DNA of 36,637 nucleotides from a virus, in IMG/VR virus record IMGVR_UViG_3300045988_143860, positions 1-36,637 of that record; one strand, written 5' to 3'. The translations under genes were made by a program, and so were the position numbers. Numbering within the stretch: position 1 is the first letter of the stretch; every line of letters starts with the position of its first letter. Positions 1-36,637 of this stretch are shown here, piece after piece. The notes beneath the pieces are model-generated. The model saw only the letters and a list, made by a program, of their open reading frames with translations. It ran no database searches and was not told the origin of the DNA.

Positions 1-55
1 TCCCCCCATCTCCACATTTACCCCGCTGCCTCGTTGAGGTGGCGGGGTTTTTCGT
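1..55. repeat. attL: left copy of 55-bp direct repeat (att core)
   Basis: nt 1-55 = nt 36583-36637, 55/55 identical. Begins TCCCCCCATCTCCA, laid out like a T-stem 3' strand + 7-nt acceptor 3' strand + discriminator of a tRNA/tmRNA. Confidence 0.9.
21..52 (+). terminator. Intrinsic terminator inside the att repeat (probably the terminator of the targeted host RNA gene)
   Basis: CCCCGCTGCC (21-30) pairs with GGTGGCGGGG (38-47): 10 bp including two G:U, 7-nt loop, then TTTTT (48-52). Duplicated at 36603-36634. Confidence 0.6.
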
Positions 56-100: not shown

Positions 101-177
101 GTGGTTTATAGTGGTTTTTATTGGTTTCGTGTTGCACGTGGGTTGCACGACAAGTTGCACGCCAGAACTCGTGCAAC
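101..177. promoter_or_regulatory. Helically phased repeats between att core and int: candidate integrase arm-type / bending sites
   Basis: TGGTTT at 102-107, 112-117, 122-127. GTTGCACG at 131-138, 142-149, 154-161. Inverted CGTGCAAC at 170-177. One more GTTGCACG near attR (36512-36519). Confidence 0.45.
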
Positions 178-195
178 AAGACAAAAGGGGGAGCC

Positions 196-1350
196 GTGGG
201 CAAGCGTCGAGGGTTCGGAAACATCCGCAAACTGCCATCCGGCAGGTTCCAAGCGTCATACCGCGGCCCCGACGGTAACCGCCACAACGCGCCCATCACT
301 TTTGAGCGAAAACGGCAGGCAGAGCAGTGGCTCGCCACCGTCCAGGCCAGCATTGCCACTAGCACATGGCAGAGCGAAGAAGACCAGAAGCGGGAGCGCA
401 CATCGCGCCTCCAAGCAGAGCAGGCCGCACAATTGACATTCACCGACTGGGCGGAGCGCTGGCTATCCTCACTGGAGAGTATCGGCAGGGCTAAGAAAAC
501 GATCCAAACCTACCAGTACCGCGTGAAACAACTTCGGGAGATTTTCGGAAGTACCCCCATCGTCCTTATCACCCCGGACGACGTGCAAGACTGGTACAAC
601 CAAAGCATGAAAGAGCGAGGCCAAGGCGTCACACGACCCCTCTACATGACGCTATCTTCATGCATGGGCGCGGCAGTCAAGGCCGGGAAGCTCTCCCAGT
701 CTCCGTGTCGTGTAACAGGCGGACAACAGTACAAACCAGTCACAGACGCGCACCGCCAAGTGGCCACACCCAGCGAGGTACTAACATGCGCCGACAACAT
801 GCCACCAAGACTGCGCCTTACTGTCCTACTGGCAGCGTGGTGTGCACTACGCGAAGGCGAGATCATCGGACTCAAGCGCAAGGACTTCACGCTAGGGGAC
901 TCGCCCGTGGTGCGTGTCGAGCGACAAATACAATACCTTGCGGGTCGTGGCCCGGTAGTAGTGCCACCGAAAAGCGAGACAGGCAGGCGCACAATCAGCA
1001 TCCCCGCGGCACTCGTGCCAGTCATACAAGAGCACTTAGACGAGTGGGCGACACCAGGCGCAGAAGGCTTGGTGTTTCATCGTGAAACCGACTTATCCAT
1101 GCCGGTGCATCCAAACACGCTGCGTGGCGCATGGAACAAGGCGCGCGCGTCGGCGGGTATCCCGTGGTTCAAGTTCCACGACCTGCGCCATACGGGGTTG
1201 ACCGTATATGCGCAACAAGGCGCAACGCTCGCTGAGCTTCTGTATAGGGGTGGCCATAGTGATGTTGAGGTGGCCTTGCGGTATCAGCATGCGACGGCTG
1301 AGAGGGATAGGGCTCTGACTGGCCTCATGGACACCCATATCATCGTGTGA
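196..1350 (+). CDS. int: Tyrosine integrase (site-specific recombinase)
   Basis: ORF 121-1350. Likely true start is GTG 196, preceded by AAGGGGGAG (185-193), giving VGKRRGFGNIRKLPSGRFQASYRGPDG. Motifs ALREGEI (Arg I), HDLRHTG (HxxR), GHSDVEVALRYQH (catalytic Tyr). Confidence 0.95.
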   Translation: MGKRRGFGNIRKLPSGRFQASYRGPDGNRHNAPITFERKRQAEQWLATVQASIATSTWQSEEDQKRERTSRLQAEQAAQLTFTDWAERWLSSLESIGRAKKTIQTYQYRVKQLREIFGSTPIVLITPDDVQDWYNQSMKERGQGVTRPLYMTLSSCMGAAVKAGKLSQSPCRVTGGQQYKPVTDAHRQVATPSEVLTCADNMPPRLRLTVLLAAWCALREGEIIGLKRKDFTLGDSPVVRVERQIQYLAGRGPVVVPPKSETGRRTISIPAALVPVIQEHLDEWATPGAEGLVFHRETDLSMPVHPNTLRGAWNKARASAGIPWFKFHDLRHTGLTVYAQQGATLAELLYRGGHSDVEVALRYQHATAERDRALTGLMDTHIIV

Positions 1351-25268: not shown

Positions 25269-26143
25269 GCCTGGATTTCCTTTCTAGGATTTTGGGCGAA
25301 TTGTTGGCCGAGTTCGATCCAGCCTTGGACGCGGTCGCTGGTCGTGTCCTGGGCGGATCGTTTTCCTTGGCGTTGCGGAAGGGGATCGTCTTCCCACCGT
25401 CCGGCGTTGAGCCAGGGGCCTGGGTGTTTCGTGTAGGCGGGGTCGCGGTTGGGGTCGTCGCGGTAGCGGGCTGCCCCGGCGACGATCTCCGCGGGCTTTG
25501 CTCGCCGGATTGCTTTGCGCCATGCCTTGCGCGCCGCCTCTTTGCCTTCGCGTCTGGGGTAGGTGACCCAGAATTTGTCGAAGTCGTGGTTGGTGGTGGG
25601 TGCGGGGATCAGTTCGAAGGTGGTGTCTTGGGGATTGCCTTTGGTACCCCCGTGTGCGGGGGGTATGGGGGGGTATTCCCCTGTTCCCCTGTTCCCCTGT
25701 TCCCCTGTTCCTAGCGGCATTTCGCCGCGAGTTGCGGCAGATTGCGGCGGATTGTCTGACTGTCCAGTGTTTTCGCAGGTGAACAGCAGTTTGCCCTCGT
25801 CTGGCATGGGGAACCTTGAGGAAGTGCCCTCACGCACCCTCTGATGGCGATTCCATGACGGAATTTCGAAAAAAGTGCGTCCGTCAACCTCGTAGAAAAG
25901 CACGCCGAAAACTGCGGCAAGTTGCGGCAAGATGCCGCGAAAATCCGCAAACTCCTCGTGAGACAGGATTGCGAGGTCGTCATTGGGGAAGATCGCGCCC
26001 TCGAGCTCCTTCGGATTGCACGTCCCATGACCGGTGTCATCGGCCCAGCACCACAGTCCGATATAGGCCAGCCTGAGCACCGCTGACGCTTCCGCCGTGT
26101 GGGGGCTGTCGAAGAACTCAGGCTTGATCGTGCGGATCCGCAT
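25265..26143 (-). CDS. Putative replication initiator / replisome organiser
   Basis: 292 aa. N-terminus MRIRTIKPEFFDSPH...LRLAYIGLWCWADDTGHG is typical of phage replication-organiser proteins. A Gly-rich linker is encoded by iteron-like DNA repeats. Basic C-terminal domain. Confidence 0.5.
   Translation of the reverse strand: MRIRTIKPEFFDSPHTAEASAVLRLAYIGLWCWADDTGHGTCNPKELEGAIFPNDDLAILSHEEFADFRGILPQLAAVFGVLFYEVDGRTFFEIPSWNRHQRVREGTSSRFPMPDEGKLLFTCENTGQSDNPPQSAATRGEMPLGTGEQGNRGTGEYPPIPPAHGGTKGNPQDTTFELIPAPTTNHDFDKFWVTYPRREGKEAARKAWRKAIRRAKPAEIVAGAARYRDDPNRDPAYTKHPGPWLNAGRWEDDPLPQRQGKRSAQDTTSDRVQGWIELGQQFAQNPRKEIQA
25676..25711. repeat. Tandem 8-bp repeat (TTCCCCTG x4 plus a partial copy) inside the replication gene
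   Basis: Perfect copies at 25676, 25684, 25692, 25700. Preceded by GGGGGGTAT x2 (25658-25676). TTGCGGC(A/G)G pairs at 25732/25742 and 25912/25922. Confidence 0.9.
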
Positions 26144-27285: not shown

Positions 27286-27848
27286 GAGCGGCCTGCCTGC
27301 TGTTGGAGGGCGGTGAGAGCTTCGACGCGTGCGCGTATTGCAGTTTGCATGTGCGGGTATTGCTTCCACCATTCGCGCAACTGGTGGATGTCGTCGCAGT
27401 CATAAACCGCGCTTTCGGAGAGTTCTGGCATCGCGGGTTGTGAGGCTTGTTCTGCGTCGTCGTCAGGGTCGCCGGTGATACCCCAGTCGGCTTGCGCTAC
27501 TTGACGTTTCGTGTAGGTGAGTGCTGATCCGAATGCTTGGGGGTTCTGCTGGTGTTCCATCGGCATATTCGACAGGGGGAGAACACTGCCGTCCATGGAG
27601 TAGACGGCGGACTTTAATGCGGGTTGTCCGTTGATTTCTCCGACGCTTTGCGTGTATGCGATCCCGTGGGCTTCACAGGCTTTGCGGATGACATGCAGGG
27701 TTGCTTTGAGGGTGGCGAACCTGTTTTTGAAATGTGGGTTGAAGCCGTCGAGTTCGGGATTGTGACAGTCCCGGAGGGCTCTGGCAAACAGAGCCTCAAT
27801 GCTTGATTCTGGTTTCGCTTCTTGTTTTTCACTCATCGTCTTCTCCAA
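27282..27848 (-). CDS. erf: Erf-family single-strand annealing protein
   Basis: NPHFKNRFATLKATLHVIRKACEAHGIAYTQ and AFGSALTYTKRQ are ERF-family signatures. Confidence 0.72.
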   Translation of the reverse strand: MEKTMSEKQEAKPESSIEALFARALRDCHNPELDGFNPHFKNRFATLKATLHVIRKACEAHGIAYTQSVGEINGQPALKSAVYSMDGSVLPLSNMPMEHQQNPQAFGSALTYTKRQVAQADWGITGDPDDDAEQASQPAMPELSESAVYDCDDIHQLREWWKQYPHMQTAIRARVEALTALQQQAGRS

Positions 27849-28662
27849 ATTCGGTGTTCAAGTACCAAAGGGGCGCGCGCAGCGTGTGCACCCGGTCCCC
27901 GTATCCCGGCCACGTGTTGAAAGTCCGGCAGGTGTCAAACGTGTCAATCGCCCGGCGCATGCGGTCGCGTCCGGCTTGTAAAAACTCCGCGTCCATTTCG
28001 ACGACGCTGACAAGATGAGGCTCCTCAACGCCGACGAGGACATGCAGAAACCGGGGCGCGTTGCCGGTGGCCTGTTCCCACATCGCCCGGTACCACGCGG
28101 CTTGGAGCGGGTAGTCGAGGTTGGCTGCTTGCCTGCGCCATACGCTCGGGTTAGCGTCGCGCGTGGTCTTCACATCCACGAGGGTTCCGTTGGTTTCCCA
28201 GTCGATCCTGCCCCGTAGCCAGACGCCGGTTTTCTCGTCTTGGGTGTAGATGGACTGCTCAGGTGTTCCGGTTTCAAACAACTGGCCCGCCACGCGGTGG
28301 TTTATGACCGCGTCTGCCGCGTTTTGTGCCCGCTGAAAGTCAGCCAACGCGATAGGCACTTCACCGCGTGCGCGGTGTGCTTCCACGTCCTCGCGTGCGG
28401 CCTTGGTGCGCAGGCTGTCGTGTTCGTGCACGTACAGGTTCAATCCCGCGCCTAAGATGAGCGCGTGGACGACGTGCCCGAAATCAAACGCCGTATTCGG
28501 CGCGCTGGGGTGATCCTTGCTCCACTTATATAAGGCGGGGCAATTGAGTAGGCGTTTGGCTTCCGTGGACGAGAGGGAGTCAGCGGGCCCGAACGTGCAT
28601 GAGTGGTAGTCGAGTTCTGGAATGTCCGGGTAGATTCCGGCGGTAAATTGTTTAGCCGTCAT
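27829..28662 (-). CDS. PD-(D/E)xK recombination exonuclease
   Basis: Likely start ATG 28660-28662 (MTAKQFTAGIYPDIPELDYH). Nuclease motif GRIDWETNGTLVDVKTT. Partner of Erf. Confidence 0.75.
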   Translation of the reverse strand: MTAKQFTAGIYPDIPELDYHSCTFGPADSLSSTEAKRLLNCPALYKWSKDHPSAPNTAFDFGHVVHALILGAGLNLYVHEHDSLRTKAAREDVEAHRARGEVPIALADFQRAQNAADAVINHRVAGQLFETGTPEQSIYTQDEKTGVWLRGRIDWETNGTLVDVKTTRDANPSVWRRQAANLDYPLQAAWYRAMWEQATGNAPRFLHVLVGVEEPHLVSVVEMDAEFLQAGRDRMRRAIDTFDTCRTFNTWPGYGDRVHTLRAPLWYLNTEFGEDDE

Positions 28663-28795
28663 AGTCGAGCTCCATTTGCCGGTCGCGCCACTGCTCATAC
28701 TCCTCATCGCTGTAGGCGAAAGGGTCATATTCTTCTTCGTCGTCAAATGCGCGCTCTGGCGGGTCGGTCGGAACATGCGCACCTGGCCAGATCAT
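28652..28795 (-). CDS. Small acidic protein (47 aa)
   Basis: ATG 28793-28795 overlaps the upstream stop (ATGA). MIWPGAHVPTDPPERAFDDEEEYDPFAYSDEEYEQWRDRQMELDYDG. The longer track ORF (to 28951) overlaps the membrane ORF. Confidence 0.42.
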   Translation of the reverse strand: MIWPGAHVPTDPPERAFDDEEEYDPFAYSDEEYEQWRDRQMELDYDG

Positions 28796-29100: not shown

Positions 29101-30513
29101 TTACGCGGCCCCATCTAAGTTTTCGTATTCGAACAATTGCTGGTTTTCGGCCATGATCCGGATTGCGGTCGCTGCCTGTTGTGGGACGACTCCGTTGCCC
29201 AGGGCTTTCAGTTGGAGTTGACGCGATATCCCGATTTCTGGACTCGTCACATGCCCAGGTGGTAGCCCCATCATCCACTCGACAAACGCGGGATTGAGCA
29301 AAGCTCTGCCGGTATTGCCGATCACGGTCGGATCAGGCGCAGACATGCCAAAGGCTTGTTCTTGCACGCGGATTGCGTCTTTGAATTCGCCGAACTTCTC
29401 ATACTTGACCAAGTCATAAAACGACTTCCGCGCCTTGTTGAACCGCTCGCTTTTACGCCCGTCAAGCTGCGAACCTGTCGGAGTGGGAAGAAGATGGGGG
29501 AGCAAAGTATTTAACGGCACTGAATTACGGCGAAGCTGGGAAGCACACGGCGCATCAGCATCTTGCGTCGTCGGAGTTGGCAGAAGATGCTCACACTGGT
29601 CATCAAGCCCGATCGCGTGGTTGCCCTGCTTTTGTTTTTCGGGGTGACGTGACCCGCGGCTCCCAAGATTCGCCGCTGGGGTGGCGAACATTTTCCGTTC
29701 CTCCACCCGACCACCGGTCTGCAATAAGCCATTTTCGACTAGTATCCGAAGATCGCTGACCGTGGTACGCCCAGGACGTTTGCACATGTGGTTCTCGGGC
29801 GTATTCCACGAAAAGGTCGCCGTCGGAGTAGGAAGAAAATTTTCCCCTTCCGCTTCTCCTACAACCGTCGGACGGGCGGTGTTCAACGCCCGATCGAGCC
29901 ACCACCGATCCCCATGCGGGAAACCGACTACGAACACGCGGGCGCGCCGATGGCAGGCGCCGACGTCTGAAGCGCGAAGGCTTGCCCATTGTGCGTCATA
30001 CCCGATTGAGGCCAAGTCCCCCAGAACACGTCCGAGAGCCCTGAGAACAGGTCTGTCTGCCCCGTTTCCCAGACGTCCCTCTCTTTGTTCCATGAGGCTA
30101 AAAGCGTTAGCACTAAGAGCTCCTAAAACGTTCTCCCACACAACCAAGTGGGGTCGGATAGTTCGTACCGCGTTAAACATTGATTCCCACAACCCCGACC
30201 GTGTTCCCGGCTTCATGCCCGCACGAACTCCGGCGACGCTGAGGTCTTGGCATGGCGACCCGCCAGCGATCACATCGACCGGTTCAACGTGAGTCCAATC
30301 GACTTGTGTAACGTCACCAAGGTTTTCAACATTGGGATGGTGGTGTTTCAAGATTGCTTTCGGCCCCGGCTCAATATCGCTCACCCACGCGAGCTCACCC
30401 GAATCCAAAGCCATCTGAACACCAAGGTCGAGTCCCCCGTACCCGGAGAACAGGCTCCCGATCGTGTACGGGCCCCGGCGATGCCCAGACTGAGCAATTT
30501 GGCTGGGGGTCAC
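29101..30513 (-). CDS. dcm: DNA (cytosine-5) methyltransferase, orphan
   Basis: Motif I SLFSGYGGLDLG, motif IV GGSPCQDLSVAG, motif VI WENVLG, motif VIII RRARVFVVG, motif X LGNGVVPQQA. Long variable region. GTG start after GGAGGAG. No adjacent nuclease. Confidence 0.93.
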   Translation of the reverse strand: MTPSQIAQSGHRRGPYTIGSLFSGYGGLDLGVQMALDSGELAWVSDIEPGPKAILKHHHPNVENLGDVTQVDWTHVEPVDVIAGGSPCQDLSVAGVRAGMKPGTRSGLWESMFNAVRTIRPHLVVWENVLGALSANAFSLMEQREGRLGNGADRPVLRALGRVLGDLASIGYDAQWASLRASDVGACHRRARVFVVGFPHGDRWWLDRALNTARPTVVGEAEGENFLPTPTATFSWNTPENHMCKRPGRTTVSDLRILVENGLLQTGGRVEERKMFATPAANLGSRGSRHPEKQKQGNHAIGLDDQCEHLLPTPTTQDADAPCASQLRRNSVPLNTLLPHLLPTPTGSQLDGRKSERFNKARKSFYDLVKYEKFGEFKDAIRVQEQAFGMSAPDPTVIGNTGRALLNPAFVEWMMGLPPGHVTSPEIGISRQLQLKALGNGVVPQQAATAIRIMAENQQLFEYENLDGAA

Positions 30514-31688: not shown

Positions 31689-31898
31689 TTATGCGTATGG
31701 TGTGATCCATTGGTTGAGTTCCTTGCCTCTAATGCGGATACGTTTCCCGGCTTTCACTGCTGGAAGGCTTTTTTCGTCAATCGCTGTTTGGACTGTCCAG
31801 CGGCCTAGACCCAGCCGCTTGCATACGGCGGTGATGCTGTAGTAGTCGTTTGGGTTGAACGCTTCACGCGGATCAGCTGGAAGTTCTTGGCTTGTCAT
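31689..31898 (-). CDS. Excisionase-family HTH protein (Xis candidate)
   Basis: Likely start ATG 31896-31898 after GGAGGAG. YYSITAVCKRLGLGRWTVQTAIDEKSLPAVKAGKRIRIRGKELNQW resembles excisionase/MerR-type winged HTH. Confidence 0.55.
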   Translation of the reverse strand: MTSQELPADPREAFNPNDYYSITAVCKRLGLGRWTVQTAIDEKSLPAVKAGKRIRIRGKELNQWITPYA

Positions 31899-31922
31899 CA
31901 CGCTTCTCCTCCTCTCGATACG

Positions 31923-32537
31923 ATGAAGAAACAAAGAATGGGGGCGCACATGGATATTCCCGCCTGGATATCAGCCATCGCTGCACTCGTTTCATTGATC
32001 GGCGCAGCCTTCTCCTTCTGGTGGAAGAACCTGTCAAAAGAAGCAACGAACGAAGCGCAAGTCGCACGTGATAGAGCAGAAAGACAAGCAACTGCGGCAG
32101 AACGAGAAGCCCAGTCGGCGCGCGACCAAGCCCGCGAAGCGTACCGGCTCAGGATCGTTGCCGAGGAGCAACTCAAAGAAGCACGCAGGCAAGCAGACTC
32201 AGCCGAAGCGCTCGTTAAAGAACTACGAGGGCAACGCGAAGCGGAACGCAACGCCACACCGTGGGCGATTCGCTGGGTGCACGGGGTCGTCTTCACGCTC
32301 GTTAACAACTCAGACGAACAACAGCGAGACGTGAACATCCGCCTGACTCTCGATGATGAGTTCATACAGGACAGGCTCATCGAAGCAGACGACTTCCCCT
32401 GCACGATCGACGCGCAAACAAACCGTGAATTCTGGTACCTTGGCCGACCTGGCCTCCACCCTATCGTGCACATCAGTTGGACCCGCCCAGACGGTCAAAC
32501 GGGTCACTGGGAAATACCTCTTCCCCCTGCGAGGTAG
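31923..32537 (+). CDS. Membrane-anchored coiled-coil protein encoded antisense to the early operon
   Basis: TM helix IPAWISAIAALVSLIGAAFSFWW, about 90-aa Arg/Glu/Ala coiled-coil, about 90-aa C-terminal domain. Start ambiguous (ATG 31923, 31938 or 31950). 3' end overlaps a convergent ORF by 65 nt. Confidence 0.5.
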   Translation: MKKQRMGAHMDIPAWISAIAALVSLIGAAFSFWWKNLSKEATNEAQVARDRAERQATAAEREAQSARDQAREAYRLRIVAEEQLKEARRQADSAEALVKELRGQREAERNATPWAIRWVHGVVFTLVNNSDEQQRDVNIRLTLDDEFIQDRLIEADDFPCTIDAQTNREFWYLGRPGLHPIVHISWTRPDGQTGHWEIPLPPAR

Positions 32538-32862: not shown

Positions 32863-33053
32863 CACGCTTCTTCTCCTTTCCGTTGCGTGGCGTGGGCTAG
32901 TACCTCGACGTCCTGACAAATAAGCGTCAGGGACACTTCCCACACGTCTTGATCAACGTGCTCGACTGTCACAGGACAGGCAGCAACCGGATACTCGTTA
33001 CCGTCCTTGTCGAATAGGACAGTCGTTTCGTTGTTCGTAATGCGCAAACTCAT
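32862..33053 (-). CDS. Hypothetical small early protein (63 aa)
   Basis: ATG 33051-33053 overlaps the cro-like stop (ATGA). MSLRITNNETTVLFDKDGNEYPVAACPVTVEHV... Confidence 0.5.
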   Translation of the reverse strand: MSLRITNNETTVLFDKDGNEYPVAACPVTVEHVDQDVWEVSLTLICQDVEVLAHATQRKGEEA

Positions 33054-33283
33054 TCCGCACTCTCCTTCCGTTGTGTGGAATGGGTGTCGGCGTCGGCGAC
33101 GAGCGCCGATGGTGTGGTGTCGAGTGCGAACGCGAAGGCCCGAATGTCGTCCCATGTGATTGGGGATATGCCTTTGGTCTTGCGGGCGACAGTCTTGGGA
33201 GTCATTCCGAGCGCTTTGGCGAGCGCATCGATGGTCATGCCCTTCCGGCCTTGCGCCGCCCTGATCTCAGCTGCGATGTCCAT
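33050..33283 (-). CDS. Cro-like XRE-family HTH regulator (first gene of the lytic operon)
   Basis: 77 aa. HTH MTIDALAKALGMTPKTVARKTKG. RBS AAAGGAGGA. Divergent from the cI-like gene. Confidence 0.75.
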   Translation of the reverse strand: MDIAAEIRAAQGRKGMTIDALAKALGMTPKTVARKTKGISPITWDDIRAFAFALDTTPSALVADADTHSTQRKESAE

Positions 33284-33333
33284 GCTTCCTCCTTTCAGGC
33301 ATTTTCTACCCCAATTGGAGTAGCTAATAACAG

Positions 33334-33364
33334 AATATAACCCTAATTAGGGTAGGTATGTCAA
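33334..33364 (-). promoter_or_regulatory. Early lytic promoter (PR-like)
   Basis: On the - strand: TTGACA (rc 33359-33364), 19 nt, TATATT (rc 33334-33339). The palindrome CCCTAATTAGGG fills the spacer. Confidence 0.5.
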
Positions 33365-33396
33365 TTTTAGGGTCGTGCGTGTCTCAATTAGGGTAG
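33341..33396. promoter_or_regulatory. Operator repeats of the genetic switch
   Basis: CCCTAATTAGGGTA (33341-33354, perfect 12-bp palindrome), CAATTTTAGGGTC (33362-33374), TCAATTAGGGTAG (33384-33396). A further CCAATTGG at 33311-33318. Confidence 0.6.
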
Positions 33397-33406
33397 TCTG
33401 CGGAGT

Positions 33407-33820
33407 ATGGGCAGGAAGTCGCTTACCGTCGGAGACTTTTCGCGCGCTGTCGCTCGCGCACTGTCGGAGCAAGCAGAGTACATTGGGAAGAGTCAGGCCG
33501 CTATCGCGAGAGAAACGGGAATCTCTCAGAATCGCGTTAACCTCATCATGAGGGCGGAGCGGGCGATCACCGTGGAAGAGACGCGAATTATCTGCGAAGC
33601 GCTAGGCATTTCCGTCCTGAGCGTCCTCCGCGACGCCGAAGCAATGTGGACACGTGATCAGCGCGCCGATAACGTTGTCGACTTCCCGCACACGCAGGAA
33701 GAGAACCTACCCGACTTCACCAAACTCGCCGCACGCAAAGTCACCAACCGCCCAGAATGGGAAAAACGACAAGCCCTCGATGACATTGGCGAAGAAAACC
33801 AAGACCCAGTAGATTCTTAA
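33407..33820 (+). CDS. cI-like XRE-family repressor
   Basis: 137 aa. HTH SQAAIARETGISQNRVNLIMRAERAITVEETRIICEALG. Divergent from the cro-like gene. TAGTCT lies 7 nt upstream of the ATG and there is no usable SD. Confidence 0.8.
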   Translation: MGRKSLTVGDFSRAVARALSEQAEYIGKSQAAIARETGISQNRVNLIMRAERAITVEETRIICEALGISVLSVLRDAEAMWTRDQRADNVVDFPHTQEENLPDFTKLAARKVTNRPEWEKRQALDDIGEENQDPVDS

Positions 33821-33844: not shown

Positions 33845-34945
33845 ATGGAGTTCACCGACGCGCTCGCCGCTCTTGCCGAAAAAGTTCGCACTCAGTACGA
33901 ACTGATTGAAACGGAAGAAGCGACAAAGAATGCTTTTATCATGCCGTTCATCTCGACAGTCCTCGGCTACGACGTATTCAACCCGCAAGAAGTCATCCCA
34001 GAATTCACTGCCGACATCGGCGTTAAACGTGGCGAAAAAGTCGACTATGCAATCTGCAACGGTGAGAAAGTCCAGATACTCATTGAATGCAAGAAGATCA
34101 ACGGTCAGTTAAGCCTTGAACATGCGGGTCAGCTCTTCCGATACTTCTCTGTCACCGAAGCAAGAATCGCGATCCTGACAAACGGAAAAGTCTGGAACTT
34201 CTACACTGACCTTGACGCCCCTAACAAGATGGACGATAAGCCTTTCCTTGTTCTCGACCTTGGAGACGTCGATGAAGTCCTACTGCCGGAACTGAAGAAA
34301 CTCACGAAAGATAGCTTTGACCTCGAAAGCATTGTATCTGCCGCAGAAGAGCTTAAGTATCTTGGTGCGATCCGTCGCGCTATCGCTGCTGAATTCAAAG
34401 AGCCGAGCCTCGATTTCGTGAGACTCTTGACCTCACGCGTTTATGATGGTCGATTCACGCCTGCGATCCAGGATAAGTTCCGCCCGCTGGTCGAAAAGGC
34501 TCTCCGTCAATTCCTCAATGAGCGAGTGAATGATCGGATCAAGACTGCCCTCGATGCTGGGGATGGGGCGCCGGTTCCGCTAACGGTTGCTGTTCAAGTG
34601 CCAGTCATGGAAGTCGAAGAAGAGCCAGAGACTGAAGAAGCATCAAGTGACGGTATTGAGACCACAGAAGAAGAACTTTTCGCGTACCGGATTATCAAGG
34701 CGATCGCGTGCGCTGAAGTTGCGCAAGACCGCATTGCGTACCGCGATGTTAAGAGCTACTTCTCGGTGCTCCTTGATGATAATAACCGTAAGCCGATTGC
34801 GCGTTGCTACTTCAACTCGAAGACGCGAAAGTGGATCTCATTCATTGATGAAGACCGGAGCGAAACGCGCTACGAGCTTGAAACCATCGAAGATATCTAC
34901 CTACACGCCGAAGCGATTCGTGAGGCTGTCAGGATGTACCGATAG
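33845..34945 (+). CDS. HsdR_N-type PD-(D/E)xK nuclease-like protein (366 aa), function unknown
   Basis: TEEATKNAFIMPFISTVLGYD...GEKVDYAI...VQILIECKK...ILTNGKVWNFY matches the type I restriction HsdR N-terminal / PD-(D/E)xK pattern. Helical middle, acidic linker, C-terminal ~90-aa domain (RDVKSYFSVLLDDNNRKPIARCYF). Confidence 0.8.
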   Translation: MEFTDALAALAEKVRTQYELIETEEATKNAFIMPFISTVLGYDVFNPQEVIPEFTADIGVKRGEKVDYAICNGEKVQILIECKKINGQLSLEHAGQLFRYFSVTEARIAILTNGKVWNFYTDLDAPNKMDDKPFLVLDLGDVDEVLLPELKKLTKDSFDLESIVSAAEELKYLGAIRRAIAAEFKEPSLDFVRLLTSRVYDGRFTPAIQDKFRPLVEKALRQFLNERVNDRIKTALDAGDGAPVPLTVAVQVPVMEVEEEPETEEASSDGIETTEEELFAYRIIKAIACAEVAQDRIAYRDVKSYFSVLLDDNNRKPIARCYFNSKTRKWISFIDEDRSETRYELETIEDIYLHAEAIREAVRMYR

Positions 34946-34963
34946 TCGTTAGAAGCAGCCTTG

Positions 34964-35071
34964 AAGCTACTCGCTGCGCGTAAAGTCACCAACCGTCCAG
35001 AATGGGAAGCAATTCAAGCGCCTAATGACATCGGCGAAGAAAACCAAGACCCCGGGGACTACGAAAACTAG
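34964..35071 (+). pseudogene. Remnant 3' end of a second, related repressor gene
   Basis: 34970-35052 aligns without gaps to 33725-33807 (69/83 identical). Reads ..LAARKVTNRPEWEAIQAPNDIGEENQDPGDYEN*. The first 13 codons differ from the intact repressor only at synonymous third positions. Confidence 0.6.
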
Positions 35072-35114
35072 CAGTGCAAAAAGGTTTACCCATGGTCTCC
35101 CATACGCTTTACCT

Positions 35115-35513
35115 ATGTGGCACCCGTGGAAAGCCTTGCGTGAAGCAAGCGAGATAGATCTGATCTGGACGGAGAACCTCCCAGACGGCATACTGGGTGC
35201 GACCAACGGAAAACAAATCTGGCTATCACTGAAGCAACTGCAGGTCGAACGCCGATGCACGCTCACACACGAACTAGTACACATCGAACGTGGACACAAA
35301 GGGTGCCAACCGGCGGCAGTCGAAAAACAAGTATGCGCTGAAGCAGCAAGGCGTCTCATCACCATTGACCAGTTGCGCGCGTGGCTCCCATGGGCGCTCA
35401 GCATGGAAGAGCTTGCCGATTGCCTTTGGGTGGATGAGGCTACGCTAAAAACCCGAATGGAAAACCTTACCGCCGAAGAATTGCAGGAACTCTCCATCGT
35501 TCTCAGCGACTAA
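35115..35513 (+). CDS. ImmA/IrrE-family (M78, COG2856-type) zinc metallopeptidase
   Basis: RRCTLTHELVHIERGH (HExxH) with ImmA-like context (ILGATNGKQIWLS; EKQVCAEAARRLI). Track ORF starts at 35025, but those 30 residues are Lys/Thr-rich and overlap the remnant. ATG 35115 has TACGCT 6 nt upstream. Confidence 0.8.
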   Translation: MWHPWKALREASEIDLIWTENLPDGILGATNGKQIWLSLKQLQVERRCTLTHELVHIERGHKGCQPAAVEKQVCAEAARRLITIDQLRAWLPWALSMEELADCLWVDEATLKTRMENLTAEELQELSIVLSD

Positions 35514-35647
35514 CCGCCGAGCTGTAGCGTCGCCCGCAGCCTCATCTCCGCACACGCCTACCGTTACGAGTCGCCACTAAACATTCCGCTCCAGATATCA
35601 TGGGAGCCAAGACGACGAACTCTCCCAACAAGACCCATAAAATTTGA

Positions 35648-36307
35648 ATGTACGCATTTATAGATGACTCCGGCGATGCCGGAATGAAATTCAAGCGAGG
35701 CTCCTCAACACATCTCGTGTTGTCGATGTGCCTATTCCAATCCGAGCAAGCGTGGAAATCAACAGAAACCGCGCTAGCTGACTTGCCTGACTACATGAAA
35801 ACAGTAGGAGAATTTAAACACTCCAAAATGAAAGACCGGCACAAAGAAGCATTTTTCAAACAAATCGAAAACGAAGACTTCTATGTCCGCGCAATAATCG
35901 TCGACAAAACAAAGCTAACAAGCCAATTCCTAGCCAGCCACGCCAACGAGATGAAAACTTACTTTCTGATGCAGCTATTAACCCACACGTGGGGGCAGGT
36001 GCAAGACTGCAAAATCGTCATCGACGGGGCGGACTTACAAGCCTTTGGAATGAAAAGCACTGACTACCTGTTCGAAAAAGCCAACGAAAATAGGAAGATT
36101 AGAGTCGCTTCGGAAGTAATCTGCGCAGACTCCAAAGATTCGTTGGGGTTACAGTTAGCCGACATGGTGGCCGGAACTATAATGGCAGGACTTAAAAAAG
36201 GTCAACCCATGATGGATACTGACAGGTGGCTACAGGTGCGCCAGCGAGCCTACCAGCCTGAAGGCAACTGGTGGTTGTTTAGGAGCCGATCAGGGCAAAG
36301 TAAATGA
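35648..36307 (+). CDS. DUF3800-family protein
   Basis: N-terminal MYAFIDDSGD and C-terminal DSKDSLGLQLADMVAG are the DUF3800 hallmarks. Sampled lines are 37-48% GC. Last gene before attR. Confidence 0.8.
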   Translation: MYAFIDDSGDAGMKFKRGSSTHLVLSMCLFQSEQAWKSTETALADLPDYMKTVGEFKHSKMKDRHKEAFFKQIENEDFYVRAIIVDKTKLTSQFLASHANEMKTYFLMQLLTHTWGQVQDCKIVIDGADLQAFGMKSTDYLFEKANENRKIRVASEVICADSKDSLGLQLADMVAGTIMAGLKKGQPMMDTDRWLQVRQRAYQPEGNWWLFRSRSGQSK

Positions 36308-36511
36308 GCCTATCCATGTGCTTGTCATGGCACGCCACCATACGGAGACTATTCGGCTCAATACTCATTTTAGCGTTGCTAGCACGTTTTGTAAATAGAT
36401 GACTTTTCTTGTCCTACCCCTAGTGTAGGAATAAGGACTGTGGATGATAGGCGTATTGAATGGCTCGAAAGCGTCGCCCGTGTGGCAGGCGTGGGAGCGG
36501 TTGGCGGGCTA

Positions 36512-36519
36512 GTTGCACG
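36512..36519. promoter_or_regulatory. GTTGCACG copy on the attR-side arm
   Basis: Same 8-mer as the three phased copies next to attL. 64 bp left of the attR core. Confidence 0.35.
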
Positions 36520-36582
36520 CTGATTGCATGCGCCACCGCTTCCGTGGCTGTTTGTGCTGGTCAGGGTGGTGTCAGGACTGAC

Positions 36583-36637
36583 TCCCCCCATCTCCACATT
36601 TACCCCGCTGCCTCGTTGAGGTGGCGGGGTTTTTCGT
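36583..36637. repeat. attR: right copy of 55-bp direct repeat (truncated by window end)
   Basis: Identical to nt 1-55. Includes the hairpin+T5 terminator (36603-36634), which here would terminate the + strand cargo operon. Confidence 0.9.

What the first reader, a model, noticed from the sequence alone, without database searches (positions are those of the whole stretch)
33845..36307. Lower-GC three-gene cargo block between repressor and attR: candidate lysogen-expressed defence / Xre-COG2856-effector system
Seen in sequence: three + strand ORFs are co-oriented with the repressor and opposed to every lytic gene. Sampled lines give about 50-55% GC (366-aa gene) and 37-48% (DUF3800 gene), against about 65% in a capsid line. 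None has a virion, replication or lysis role. Established knowledge: (1) the 366-aa protein has an HsdR_N-type PD-(D/E)xK core (D in VDYAI, E-x-K in IECKK); (2) the next protein is an ImmA/IrrE M78 peptidase (HELVH); (3) the last has DUF3800 hallmarks (FIDDSGD ... DS..LQLADMVAG). Xre+COG2856 peptidase pairs are known genomic partners of diverse toxin/effector genes. The repressor-to-attP interval of actinophages is a known hot spot for prophage-mediated defence genes. Inference: a protease-gated nuclease/effector module that protects the lysogen or aborts infection. I cannot match this trio to any named system from memory.
Basis: partly seen in the sequence, partly recalled or inferred. Interest (0 to 1): 0.85.

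Follow-up and report, generated by a model that had tools for sequence, protein, structure and literature searches.

The report
Mosaic prophage cargo, not one system

Summary
The window is one complete prophage, bounded by perfect 55-nt att repeats at 1-55 and 36583-36637. All three ORFs and their domain calls hold. A (33845-34945) has an HsdR_N PD-(D/E)xK nuclease domain. B is an ImmA/IrrE M78 peptidase whose true start is probably 35115. C (35648-36307) is DUF3800 with an RNase HII-like fold.

The proposed protease-gated three-gene system is not supported.
- **Independent assortment:** sister prophages 88-98% identical at the DNA level carry A, B and C in different combinations. One lacks both A and C.
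- **A is autonomous:** it stands alone in 80 of 80 chromosomal loci sampled. In phages it follows the repressor, including self-cleaving cI/LexA-type repressors that need no M78 protease.
- **A looks inserted:** two copies of the repressor's 3' tail (84 nt, 83% identical) bracket it.
- **C has its own partner:** a DUF3800-IX RNA (Rfam RF02968, 36296-36364, minus strand, own promoter) lay convergent to C in all 19 other loci found. This pair also occurs in ICEs and chromosomes, and in either orientation relative to the lysogeny genes.

Best reading: B with the Xre repressor forms the induction switch, and A and C+RNA are separate cargo, probably expressed in the lysogen. Their functions remain untested.

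The parts
1..55 (.). attL core, a perfect 55-nt repeat of 36583-36637
   Evidence: family D3, 100% identity. It contains a terminator-like hairpin.
121..1350 (+). Tyrosine integrase. In the excised phage it lies directly downstream of the cargo block, across attP.
   Evidence: phrog_1 integrase, E 1.6e-59. In L198 the order B-attP-int is contiguous.
33050..33283 (-). Cro-like HTH protein, divergent from the repressor
   Evidence: HTH_31 at 2e-8 and phrog_4583 at 1.7e-15
33284..33406 (.). Switch region with operator-like repeats: AATTAGGGTAG in three copies (two exact, one 82%) and the palindrome ACCCTAATTAGGGT at 33340-33353
   Evidence: sequence
33407..33820 (+). Xre-type prophage repressor (137 aa). 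Its HTH half varies between sister phages; its ~50-aa C-terminal tail is conserved.
   Evidence: HTH_3 at 1.4e-6. Alignment of sister repressors.
33724..33807 (+). Repeat copy 1: the 3' end of the repressor gene, encoding LAARKVTNRPEWEKRQALDDIGEENQDP
   Evidence: (family D1)
33845..34945 (+). Gene A: a 366-aa orphan nuclease with four regions. HsdR_N PD-(D/E)xK domain (aa 1-140), helical domain (144-238), disordered acidic linker (239-268), and a family-specific C-terminal alpha/beta domain (275-365).
34969..35052 (+). Repeat copy 2: a relic of a repressor 3' end. The reading frame runs to the TAG at 35068-35070 and encodes LAARKVTNRPEWEAIQAPNDIGEENQDPGDYEN*.
   Evidence: (83% identical to copy 1). 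Present in all sister loci that carry A.
35115..35513 (+). Gene B: a short ImmA/IrrE (M78) metallopeptidase of 132 aa. The mechanical ORF begins at 35025.
   Evidence: phrog_87 at 1e-19. Homologues are named ImmA/IrrE, and 19 of 22 hit PF06114. HExxH and E70 are invariant.
35542..36494 (.). The C cassette (DUF3800 gene, RNA gene and RNA promoter). It is absent as a unit from sister phage L198 and is present between the repressor and M78 in L014 and L188.
   Evidence: blastn junctions
35648..36307 (+). Gene C: a DUF3800 protein with an RNase HII-like fold
   Evidence: PF12686 at 2.6e-14. AF2 model with pLDDT 89. Foldseek matches to RNase HII at E 7e-6. Invariant residues D6, E55, D126, Q169, D172.
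36296..36364 (-). DUF3800-IX structured RNA (Rfam RF02968). It is convergent with C and overlaps C's last 12 nt.
   Evidence: 44 bits against a gathering score of 36.8. The same geometry holds in all 19 other loci found. Eight of 19 pairs have compensatory changes.
36367..36395 (-). Promoter-like site TTTACA-17-TAAAAT directly upstream of the RNA's 5' end
   Evidence: 10 of 12 consensus positions. A -35/-10-like pair is visible upstream of the RNA in all five lineages, at the same register in window and L014.
36440..36523 (+). Relic of the 5' end of an L014-type M78 gene (VDDRRIEWLESVARVAGV..., stop after 27 codons)
36583..36637 (.). attR core

Best explanation
The block is a mosaic lysogeny module made of three functionally separate units, not one system.

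(1) B, a short ImmA/IrrE-type zinc peptidase, belongs with the Xre repressor at 33407-33820 as the prophage's induction switch. By analogy with ImmR/ImmA and DdrO/IrrE, a DNA-damage signal activates the peptidase, which then cleaves the repressor. The cleavage site is probably in the repressor's conserved C-terminal tail.

(2) A is an autonomous single-gene module. It has a catalytically intact HsdR_N-type PD-(D/E)xK nuclease domain joined to a family-specific C-terminal domain. It was inserted between the repressor and B by recombination in the repressor tail, which left a duplicated tail. Only 24 nt separate it from the repressor gene, and no + strand terminator is predicted between the repressor and position 36530. 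It is therefore most likely co-transcribed with the repressor in the lysogen. My inference is that it acts there as an exclusion or restriction-like nuclease against incoming DNA, in the way rexAB sits downstream of cI in lambda.

(3) C and the convergent DUF3800-IX RNA form a mobile cassette of about 950 bp: an RNase HII-like protein with its own structured RNA, transcribed from its own promoter. My inference is that the two form a ribonucleoprotein in which the RNA is a cofactor, guide or inhibitor of the nuclease, and that the cassette serves defence or addiction.

Shown here: the anatomy, the family memberships, the independent assortment of the genes, and the linkage of the RNA to C. Inferred: every biochemical activity and every phenotype.
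For: Independent assortment in sister prophages:
- L005 and L007: repressor-A-relic-Fic (-B-AAA_21 in L005; L007 ends at the start of B). L006 and L008: repressor-A-relic-208 aa-394-aa M78 protein.
- L198: repressor tail 98.5% identical, then three other genes, then B (93%), then attP and int. The equivalent of window position 35541 is followed within about 50 nt by the equivalent of ~36495, so this phage is an empty site for C, and it lacks A.
- L197: B-C-RNA at 93.8% identity, without A.
- L014 and L188: repressor-C-RNA-M78-int, without A.

A is autonomous:
- 0 of 80 chromosomal loci have an M78 or DUF3800 ORF within 6 kb, and the commonest flanking gene cluster appears in only 6 of 80.
- In 31 non-redundant phage loci the upstream gene carries HTH_3 in 11 and Peptidase_S24 in 8. 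The downstream gene is highly variable.
- An 84-nt repeat of the repressor tail brackets A.
- The catalytic residues D67, E81 and K83 are invariant, as is Q96-x-x-x-Y100. The fold matches the nuclease domains of DrdV and HsdR.

B belongs to the switch:
- Its homologues are ImmA/IrrE family proteins with invariant HExxH and E70.
- Its GC content (0.544) is near the phage mean, unlike A and C.
- The architecture 'repressor, 0-3 variable genes, M78, recombinase' recurs in L185, L198, L014, Juicebox, EG-TP1 and IPP25.

C and the RNA belong together:
- The RF02968 match in the window is above the gathering score.
- It is also present, convergent and abutting the C stop codon, in all 19 other loci, which represent about 7 lineages: prophages, a Trueperella ICE, and the Arcanobacterium and Schaalia chromosomes.
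- The cassette is inverted relative to the M78 and repressor genes in L187, L190, L191 and L195.
- The outer stem covaries while the core is invariant, even though the C proteins are only 53-88% identical.
- A promoter is found directly upstream of the RNA.
- C has an RNase HII-like fold.
Against: - No expression or phenotype data exist for any of the genes, so the roles assigned to A and C are inferences from position and fold.
- The window's B scores below Pfam's M78 cut-off on its own.
- B is not adjacent to the repressor here. In L197 and L198 a second small HTH protein lies nearer to B, so B's true substrate could differ.
- A DUF3800 gene lies within about 3 kb of an A homologue in 3 of 80 viral loci (L038, L040, L052), two of which (L038, L040) also carry an M78 gene. 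I cannot show that this is no more than expected for genes sharing one hot spot.
- A is unusually well conserved for a defence gene (57-70% identity across orders). This could point to a cellular DNA-metabolism role instead.
- My M78 detection in the flanks used a home-made HMM and may miss divergent members.
Confidence: 0.72

Rival explanations
1. The Xre repressor, the M78 protease, nuclease A and DUF3800 protein C form one protease-gated defence or abortive-infection system, comparable to CapH/CapP-regulated CBASS. In this model the protease releases or activates the effectors on infection.
For: - All four genes are co-oriented, and no + strand terminator is predicted between them.
- HTH plus M78 pairs are known to regulate defence operons (CapH/CapP, bioRxiv 10.1101/2022.04.27.489752, listed).
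- The repressor hits PADLOC capH weakly, at E 0.015.
- L038 and L040 also combine an A homologue, an M78 gene and a DUF3800 gene.
Against: - The genes assort independently among sister prophages.
- A is solitary in 80 of 80 chromosomal loci.
- A follows S24-type repressors in 8 of 31 phage lineages.
- The C+RNA cassette occurs without M78 and in inverted orientation.
- Relics at both cassette edges show that the block was assembled by recombination.
- The DUF3800 genes in L038 and L040 have no BLAST similarity to C and no DUF3800-IX RNA.
Confidence: 0.07
2. A is not a defence gene. It is a lysogeny co-regulator or DNA-damage sensor that modulates prophage induction, for example by processing DNA to generate the signal that inactivates the neighbouring repressor. 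Alternatively it is a cellular DNA-repair or recombination nuclease that phages have captured.
For: - In phages of several phyla A sits immediately next to the repressor, whether that repressor is Xre/ImmA-type or S24-type.
- Accessory genes in pneumococcal lysogeny modules (szaL, spaL) co-regulate induction (PMC12637031).
- A is very well conserved (57-70% identity across Actinomycetota orders) and present in hundreds of chromosomes, which is unusual for a fast-evolving defence gene.
- A is absent from PADLOC apart from a weak match of its nuclease domain.
Against: - Chromosomal copies have no phage repressor beside them and no conserved synteny. So A works without a phage switch and behaves as a mobile accessory gene, not a core repair gene.
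- The Porphyromonas phages carry it next to a HicAB pair among structural genes, in a moron-like position.
- Sister phage L198 has the same switch without A.
Confidence: 0.2
3. C and its RNA form a toxin-antitoxin-like addiction module whose role is to stabilise the element that carries it, with no role in phage defence. The convergent RNA would act either as an antisense RNA against the 3' end of the C mRNA (type I-like) or as a protein-binding antitoxin (type III-like).
For: - The convergent, 3'-overlapping geometry is constant, with 2-18 nt of overlap with the C stop region.
- The RNA has its own strong promoter.
- The cassette travels on prophages, ICEs and islands.
Against: - The RNA core is nearly invariant across lineages and has a covarying outer stem. 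That is typical of a protein-binding structured RNA and not needed for a simple antisense RNA.
- For another DUF3800 motif, Weinberg et al. 2017 report the RNA on either strand and either side of the gene (PMC5737381).
- C is a 219-aa RNase HII-like enzyme, not a small membrane toxin. The RNA is single-copy, not a tandem array.
- DUF3800 also accompanies retrons and CRISPR-Cas loci (PMC7736814, PMC10910872, PMC12669027), which favours an immune role.
Confidence: 0.25

Closest known systems
ImmR/ImmA (ICEBs1, phage phi105, pneumococcal ImmAR prophages) and DdrO/IrrE: an Xre repressor with a COG2856/M78 anti-repressor peptidase
   Same: - An Xre-type HTH repressor divergent from a cro-like gene.
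- A co-oriented short M78 peptidase with HExxH and a downstream Glu.
- The integrase lies downstream across attP.
- The repressor has a C-terminal tail separate from its DNA-binding half.
   Different: - The repressor and the peptidase are separated by an inserted 366-aa gene.
- The peptidase is short (132 aa).
- The window protein scores below Pfam's M78 cut-off on its own.
- Cleavage is untested.
The N-terminal nuclease domain of type I HsdR and type IIG/IIL enzymes (EcoR124I HsdR, DrdV); PHROG 4225 'endonuclease'; COG2810 'predicted type IV restriction endonuclease'
   Same: - A PD-(D/E)xK core with D, ExK and QxxxY motifs.
- Pfam HSDR_N and HSDR_N_2 matches.
- Foldseek matches to 7lvv (DrdV) and 3h1t (HsdR fragment).
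- A full-length match to phrog_4225.
   Different: - No helicase/translocase domain, and no HsdM or HsdS partner.
- It is a stand-alone 366-aa protein with a helical domain and a C-terminal domain found only in this family.
- No member of the family has been characterised, as far as the held literature shows.
Lambda rexAB and other lysogen-expressed exclusion genes co-transcribed with the repressor
   Same: A occupies the position directly downstream of the prophage repressor, on the repressor's strand. The downstream neighbours vary, as expected for a moron hot spot.
   Different: There is no sequence or fold relationship to RexA or RexB. A is a predicted nuclease, and exclusion activity has not been tested.
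DUF3800 genes with DUF3800-I to -XI RNA motifs (Weinberg et al. 2017; Rfam RF02968 for motif IX)
   Same: - The protein matches PF12686 with the canonical N-terminal DxSGD and C-terminal QxxD motifs.
- The RNA matches RF02968 above the gathering score.
- The RNA lies directly beside the gene.
   Different: Nothing essential differs. This is a new instance. What this work adds is that motif IX was convergent with the gene's 3' end in every locus examined, that it has its own promoter, and that gene plus RNA move as a ~950-bp cassette into and out of prophage lysogeny modules.
DUF3800 in retron type VII and the TPR-DUF3800 accessory proteins of Cas12a2/a3 and type VI-F CRISPR loci
   Same: The same domain family with an RNase H-like fold, and an association with a non-coding RNA and with immunity loci.
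   Different: Here there is no reverse transcriptase, no Cas gene and no TPR domain. C keeps the QxxD motif, which Mestre et al. 2020 say the retron-linked proteins lack.

Membership tests
ImmR/ImmA-type switch (Xre repressor + COG2856/M78 peptidase) | An Xre/cI-type HTH repressor in a lysogeny module, divergent from a cro-like gene | tested here: met
   HTH_3 and HTH_31 matches for 33407-33820. The divergent HTH gene is at 33050-33283. Operator-like repeats lie between the two genes.
ImmR/ImmA-type switch (Xre repressor + COG2856/M78 peptidase) | A peptidase of family M78 with HExxH and a third metal ligand | tested here: met
   The window protein scores 16.7 bits, below the Pfam cut-off of 22. 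It matches phrog_87 at 1e-19, 19 of 22 homologues hit PF06114, and H52, E53, H56 and E70 are invariant. A profile of the family gives a weak match to IrrE 3dte at the HExxH region.
ImmR/ImmA-type switch (Xre repressor + COG2856/M78 peptidase) | The peptidase gene is adjacent to and co-oriented with the repressor gene | tested here: inconclusive
   The genes are co-oriented but 1.3 kb apart because A lies between them. A relic of a repressor 3' end ends 45 nt upstream of B's start, which implies that the two were once adjacent.
ImmR/ImmA-type switch (Xre repressor + COG2856/M78 peptidase) | The peptidase cleaves the repressor in response to DNA damage | not testable with these tools
   This needs co-expression and cleavage assays.
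Type I restriction enzyme HsdR subunit | An N-terminal PD-(D/E)xK nuclease domain (HSDR_N) | tested here: met
   PF04313 at 4e-12 and PF13588 at 2e-7. D67, E81 and K83 are invariant. Foldseek matches to 3h1t and 7lvv.
Type I restriction enzyme HsdR subunit | An SF2 helicase/translocase motor and HsdM/HsdS partner genes | tested here: not met
   A is 366 aa with no helicase domain. Chromosomal loci have no conserved neighbouring gene.
Type IV (modification-dependent) restriction endonuclease | A stand-alone nuclease without a cognate methyltransferase | tested here: met
   A is solitary in 80 of 80 chromosomal loci, in variable contexts.
Type IV (modification-dependent) restriction endonuclease | A recognisable modified-base reader domain (SRA, EVE/ASCH/YTH, Mrr-N, McrB-N) | tested here: not met
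   The C-terminal domain has no Pfam match and no confident structural match. The best hits are YkuJ- and PUR-like at E > 0.3. The domain occurs only in this family.
Type IV (modification-dependent) restriction endonuclease | Cleavage depends on DNA modification | not testable with these tools
   A biochemical assay is needed.
DUF3800 (PF12686) | A Pfam match above the cut-off, with the conserved N-terminal acidic motif and C-terminal QxxD | tested here: met
   54.6 bits against a cut-off of 21. D6, S8, G9, D10, Q169 and D172 are invariant.
DUF3800 (PF12686) | An RNase H-like fold | tested here: met
   AF2 model with pLDDT 89.1 and pTM 0.89. The top Foldseek hits are archaeal RNase HII structures at E 7e-6 to 2e-4.
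DUF3800-IX RNA (Rfam RF02968) | A covariance-model score at or above the gathering threshold | tested here: met
   44 bits against 36.8, covering the full model 1-67.
DUF3800-IX RNA (Rfam RF02968) | Located next to a DUF3800 gene, with a structure supported by covariation | tested here: met
   The RNA abuts the C stop codon here and in all 19 other loci. Eight of 19 pairs have compensatory changes.
CapH/CapP-type regulated defence operon | The HTH + M78 pair consistently accompanies the effector genes it regulates | tested here: not met
   A and C each occur widely without M78. PADLOC gives capH only at E 0.015 and nothing for B.
Named anti-phage systems in PADLOC-DB v2 | Proteins match the models of a named system | tested here: not met
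   For A, only the nuclease domain matches a type IIG model (E 1.8e-4, 108 of 1011 positions). B has no match. C matches only the candidate model PDC-M04A at 3.9e-9. DefenseFinder could not be run.
Type III toxin-antitoxin (RNA antitoxin) | A tandem array of antitoxin RNA repeats upstream of an endoribonuclease toxin that processes it | tested here: not met
   The RNA is single-copy, convergent and downstream of C.

The most novel reading that the evidence does not exclude
The ~950-bp cassette at 35542-36494 may be a self-contained ribonucleoprotein immune or addiction module. In this reading the nearly invariant DUF3800-IX RNA, made from its own promoter, is the cofactor, guide or inhibitor of an RNase HII-like nuclease. 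That would give a first functional handle on the eleven DUF3800-associated RNA classes, which have had no explanation since 2017. Independently, gene A could found a new and very widespread family of single-gene, repressor-linked exclusion nucleases with a novel sensor domain.
Probability: 0.35. Interest if true: 0.7.

Novelty: new member of a known kind. Interest (0 to 1): 0.42.

Why it matters
- **A likely misannotation is avoided.** A plausible-looking 'new three-gene defence system' turns out to be three separately exchangeable modules. This is a caution against reading co-oriented genes at prophage hot spots as operonic systems.
- **Two uncharacterised modules become testable.** In temperate phages of several phyla it repeatedly occupies the position just after the repressor. 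The second is a minimal DUF3800 + DUF3800-IX RNA cassette.
- **Natural controls exist.** Sister prophages provide empty sites for both A and C, which are ready-made controls for experiments.
- **Cassette exchange mechanism.** The duplicated repressor tail and the M78 relic show how conserved switch genes serve as recombination linkers for swapping cargo.

Tried and rejected
- **DNA search against phage records.** Megablast of the block found nothing. tblastn of C against phage records also found nothing.
- **Sequence searches of PDB.** A, B and C alone gave no hits. A profile of B gave only marginal matches to IrrE, and a spurious top hit to adenylosuccinate lyase.
- **A's C-terminal domain.** Foldseek against PDB and against viral structures gave no confident match for it. 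Searching the domain alone found it only in A-type proteins, so domain fusions give no functional clue.
- **A as a core housekeeping gene.** Rejected because the flanking genes are not conserved.
- **A as part of a type I or type II R-M system with the prophage methyltransferase at 29101-30513.** Rejected. That gene is on the opposite strand among the early genes, and chromosomal copies of A have no methyltransferase partner.
- **Search with the 19-nt RNA core.** It returned 9 loci. Two of them (L189, L193) share only the 19-mer and not the motif, so I discarded them as chance.
- **tRNA as the integration target.** None was found in the window.
- **One script timed out** and was rerun on a smaller set.
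- **One paper could not be opened.** The 2026 bioRxiv preprint that mentions DUF3800 (10.64898/2026.08.25.746378) was not held.

Full report
**1. What is there**

The window is one complete prophage. A perfect 55-nt direct repeat (1-55 and 36583-36637) marks attL and attR, and a tyrosine integrase lies at 121-1350. Packaging, tail, lysis and recombination genes run on the minus strand.

At the right end, a Cro-like HTH gene (33050-33283, minus strand) diverges from an Xre repressor (33407-33820, plus strand). The region between them carries operator-like repeats. The three ORFs of the finding follow on the plus strand exactly as described.

The block's GC content is 0.505 against 0.574 for the prophage, which puts it in the lowest ~1% of equal-sized windows. 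The genes differ from each other: A is 0.505, C is 0.471, and B at 0.544 is close to the phage average.

**2. The domain calls hold**

- **A.** It matches Pfam HSDR_N (4e-12) and HSDR_N_2, and matches phrog_4225 'endonuclease' over its full length (3e-123). In 39 homologues D67, E81, C82 and K83 are invariant, as are Q96 and Y100. From my own knowledge, that last pair is the QxxxY motif of HsdR/RecB-type nucleases. An AlphaFold model (pLDDT 82.9) shows four regions: a nuclease domain (1-140), a helical domain (144-238), a disordered acidic linker (239-268) and a C-terminal alpha/beta domain (275-365). The nuclease domain matches those of DrdV and HsdR. The C-terminal domain has no confident structural match. 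By sequence it occurs only at the C-terminus of A-type proteins, across 1305 representative clusters.
- **B.** On its own it scores below Pfam's M78 cut-off. It matches phrog_87 'metallo-protease' at 1e-19, its homologues are annotated ImmA/IrrE, and 19 of 22 reach PF06114. H52-E-x-x-H56, E70 and R46-R47 are invariant. The homologues start at MWHPW, so the real start is probably ATG 35115 (132 aa).
- **C.** It is DUF3800 (2.6e-14) with invariant D6, S8, G9, D10, E55, D126 and Q169-x-x-D172. Its model (pLDDT 89) matches archaeal RNase HII at E ~1e-5. This agrees with published predictions (PMC7736814, PMC10910872).

**3.

- **A repeat that brackets A.** An 84-nt direct repeat, 83% identical, lies at 33724-33807 and 34969-35052. 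Copy 1 is the end of the repressor gene. Copy 2 is a relic of a repressor 3' end; its reading frame stops at 35068-35070, 45 nt before B's start. Sister repressors differ in their HTH halves (47-60% identity overall) but share an almost identical tail of about 50 aa.
- **A structured RNA gene.** An Rfam scan finds a DUF3800-IX RNA (RF02968) at 36296-36364 on the minus strand. It scores 44 bits against a gathering score of 36.8 and overlaps the last 12 nt of C. The independent promoter scan places TTTACA-17-TAAAAT directly upstream of it.
- **A second relic.** Positions 36440-36523 hold the first ~18 codons of an L014-type M78 gene, followed by an early stop.

**4. The three genes are not a unit**

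Sister prophages that are 88-98% identical at the DNA level carry different combinations of the three genes.

| Locus | Order of genes |
|---|---|
| Window | repressor - A - relic - B - C/RNA - attR |
| L005, L007 | repressor - A - relic - Fic (- B - AAA_21 ATPase in L005; L007 ends at the start of B) |
| L006, L008 | repressor - A - relic - 208 aa - 394-aa M78 protein |
| L198 | repressor (tail 98.5% identical) - three other genes - B - attP - int |
| L197 | HTH - 137 aa - B - C - RNA |
| L014, L188 | repressor - C - RNA - M78 - int |

In L198 the equivalent of window position 35541 is followed within about 50 nt by the equivalent of ~36495. L198 is therefore an empty site for the C cassette, and it also lacks A.

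- In 80 chromosomal loci, none has an M78 or DUF3800 ORF within 6 kb. The commonest flanking gene cluster occurs in only 6 of 80.
- A also occurs in temperate phages of Corynebacterium, Enterococcus, Streptococcus, Porphyromonas, Fusobacterium, Clostridium, Pseudomonas and Klebsiella. It is usually in the lysogeny module beside the repressor.
- In 31 non-redundant IMG/VR lineages, the gene just upstream carries HTH_3 in 11 and Peptidase_S24 in 8. The S24 proteins are self-cleaving cI/LexA-type repressors, which need no M78 protease.
- The gene just downstream is highly variable: Abi_2, Fic, nucleases, a methyltransferase, M78, integrase and others.
- A same-strand M78 gene is detectable nearby in about 10 of 34 lineages.

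**C and its RNA in other genomes.** C has few homologues (46). Every locus examined carries the DUF3800-IX RNA convergent with the end of C and abutting or overlapping it: 11 loci and 8. Together these represent about seven lineages:
- prophages;
- a Trueperella conjugative element;
- the Arcanobacterium haemolyticum chromosome;
- the Schaalia chromosome.

Further points on the cassette:
- In Schaalia sp. ZJ405 the homologues of B and C lie 0.53 Mb apart.
- In L187, L190, L191 and L195 the cassette is inverted relative to the M78 and repressor genes.
- The RNA core is essentially invariant although the proteins are only 53-88% identical. The outer stem covaries, with 8 of 19 pairs showing compensatory changes.

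**The exact trio.** It was not seen anywhere else. L038 and L040 combine an A homologue, an M78 gene and a DUF3800 gene. There the DUF3800 belongs to a different subfamily, the gene order differs and there is no DUF3800-IX RNA.

**5. How it most likely works**

What is shown: the anatomy, the family memberships, the independent assortment, the linkage of the RNA to C, and the recombination scars. Everything below is inferred.

- **B and the repressor.** Together they form an ImmR/ImmA-type induction switch. A DNA-damage signal would activate the peptidase, which would then cleave the repressor, probably in the conserved tail. The relic shows that a repressor 3' end once lay directly upstream of B. 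The conserved tail and the M78 gene act as homologous 'linkers', and cargo cassettes are exchanged between them.
- **A.** Only 24 nt separate it from the repressor gene, and no plus-strand terminator is predicted before position 36530. It is therefore probably co-transcribed with the repressor in the lysogen. It occupies the position that rexAB holds downstream of cI in lambda. With an intact nuclease site and a private C-terminal domain, its most likely role is as a restriction-like or exclusion nuclease against incoming DNA. A role in modulating induction or in DNA repair remains a live rival. Arguments for that rival are A's high conservation and the pneumococcal precedent for lysogeny-module co-regulators (PMC12637031).
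- **C and the RNA.** They most likely form a ribonucleoprotein, in which an RNase HII-like enzyme uses or is restrained by its cognate structured RNA. Its purpose is unknown. The association of DUF3800 with retrons and with CRISPR-Cas loci and a hit to the PADLOC candidate model PDC-M04A point to immunity. An addiction (toxin-antitoxin-like) role is the main alternative.

**6. Comparison with what is known, and verdict**

Each part belongs to a described family: the ImmA/IrrE M78 peptidases, HSDR_N / PHROG 4225, and DUF3800 with Rfam RF02968. A fails the membership tests for type I HsdR, because it has no motor domain and no HsdM or HsdS partner. It lacks any recognisable reader domain for modified bases, so 'type IV restriction enzyme' is an analogy and not a classification. 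No named PADLOC system matches any of the three genes.

The finding as interpreted, a new protease-gated trio, is not supported. What remains is an informative mosaic holding two uncharacterised but already catalogued modules, with natural presence/absence variants that would make good experimental controls. Interest is moderate, at 0.42.

Noticed in passing
window 1-55 and 36583-36637: Perfect 55-nt att repeats. Each contains a strong terminator-like hairpin (ACCCCGCTGCC...GGTGGCGGGGT followed by TTTTT). The phage therefore seems to integrate at the 3' end or terminator of a host gene rather than in a tRNA; no tRNA was found in the window.
   Followed up: partly
window 33724-33807 and 34969-35052: An 84-nt direct repeat (83% identical) of the repressor's 3' end brackets gene A. 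The relic lies in the same frame as A, after A's TAG stop. It could also be read as a 36-codon ORF from TTG 34961 that encodes a copy of the repressor tail. Whether such a peptide is made, for instance as a decoy for the protease, is unknown.
   Followed up: partly
window 36440-36523: A relic of the first ~18 codons of a second M78 gene of the L014 type lies just after the DUF3800/RNA cassette. It suggests that the cassette arrived by recombination with a phage that had the order repressor-C-RNA-M78.
   Followed up: yes
window 33284-33406: The intergenic switch region has three copies of AATTAGGGTAG (two exact, one 82%) and the 14-bp palindrome ACCCTAATTAGGGT. These are probably repressor and Cro operators.
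   Followed up: partly
window 31887-32537 (+): A 216-aa plus-strand ORF with an N-terminal hydrophobic segment and a long charged, coiled-coil-like region. It sits among minus-strand early genes and gives only weak hits (Rz-like spanin phrog_312 at 4e-4; PADLOC LeoBC at 1e-3). It may be another lysogen-expressed gene.
   Followed up: partly
window 29101-30513 (-) and 27829-28782 (-): A phage DNA methyltransferase (phrog_363 and phrog_116, E ~1e-65) and a RecE/exonuclease VIII-like gene lie in the early region. The methyltransferase could protect the phage genome from restriction. No link to gene A was found.
   Followed up: no
window 25676-25707: A short tandem repeat of TTCCCCTG, four copies, perfect.
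   Followed up: no
L005 7386-8546 and 9114-9938; L006 7276-9076: Sister prophages carry other toxin- or defence-type cargo in the same slots: a Fic protein, an AAA_21 (AbiEii-like) ATPase, and a 394-aa HTH-M78 fusion preceded by an unknown 208-aa gene.
   Followed up: partly
L002 (Porphyromonas phage BK068099) 3248-5065: In Porphyromonas gingivalis phages the A homologue sits next to a HicA/HicB pair among structural genes, not in the lysogeny module. This is a moron-like placement.
   Followed up: no
L193 ~1680 and L189 ~1166: The 19-nt invariant core of the RNA (AGTCTCCGTATGGTGGCGT) occurs in two metagenome contigs that lack the rest of the motif and have no DUF3800 gene. I treated these as chance matches.
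   Followed up: partly
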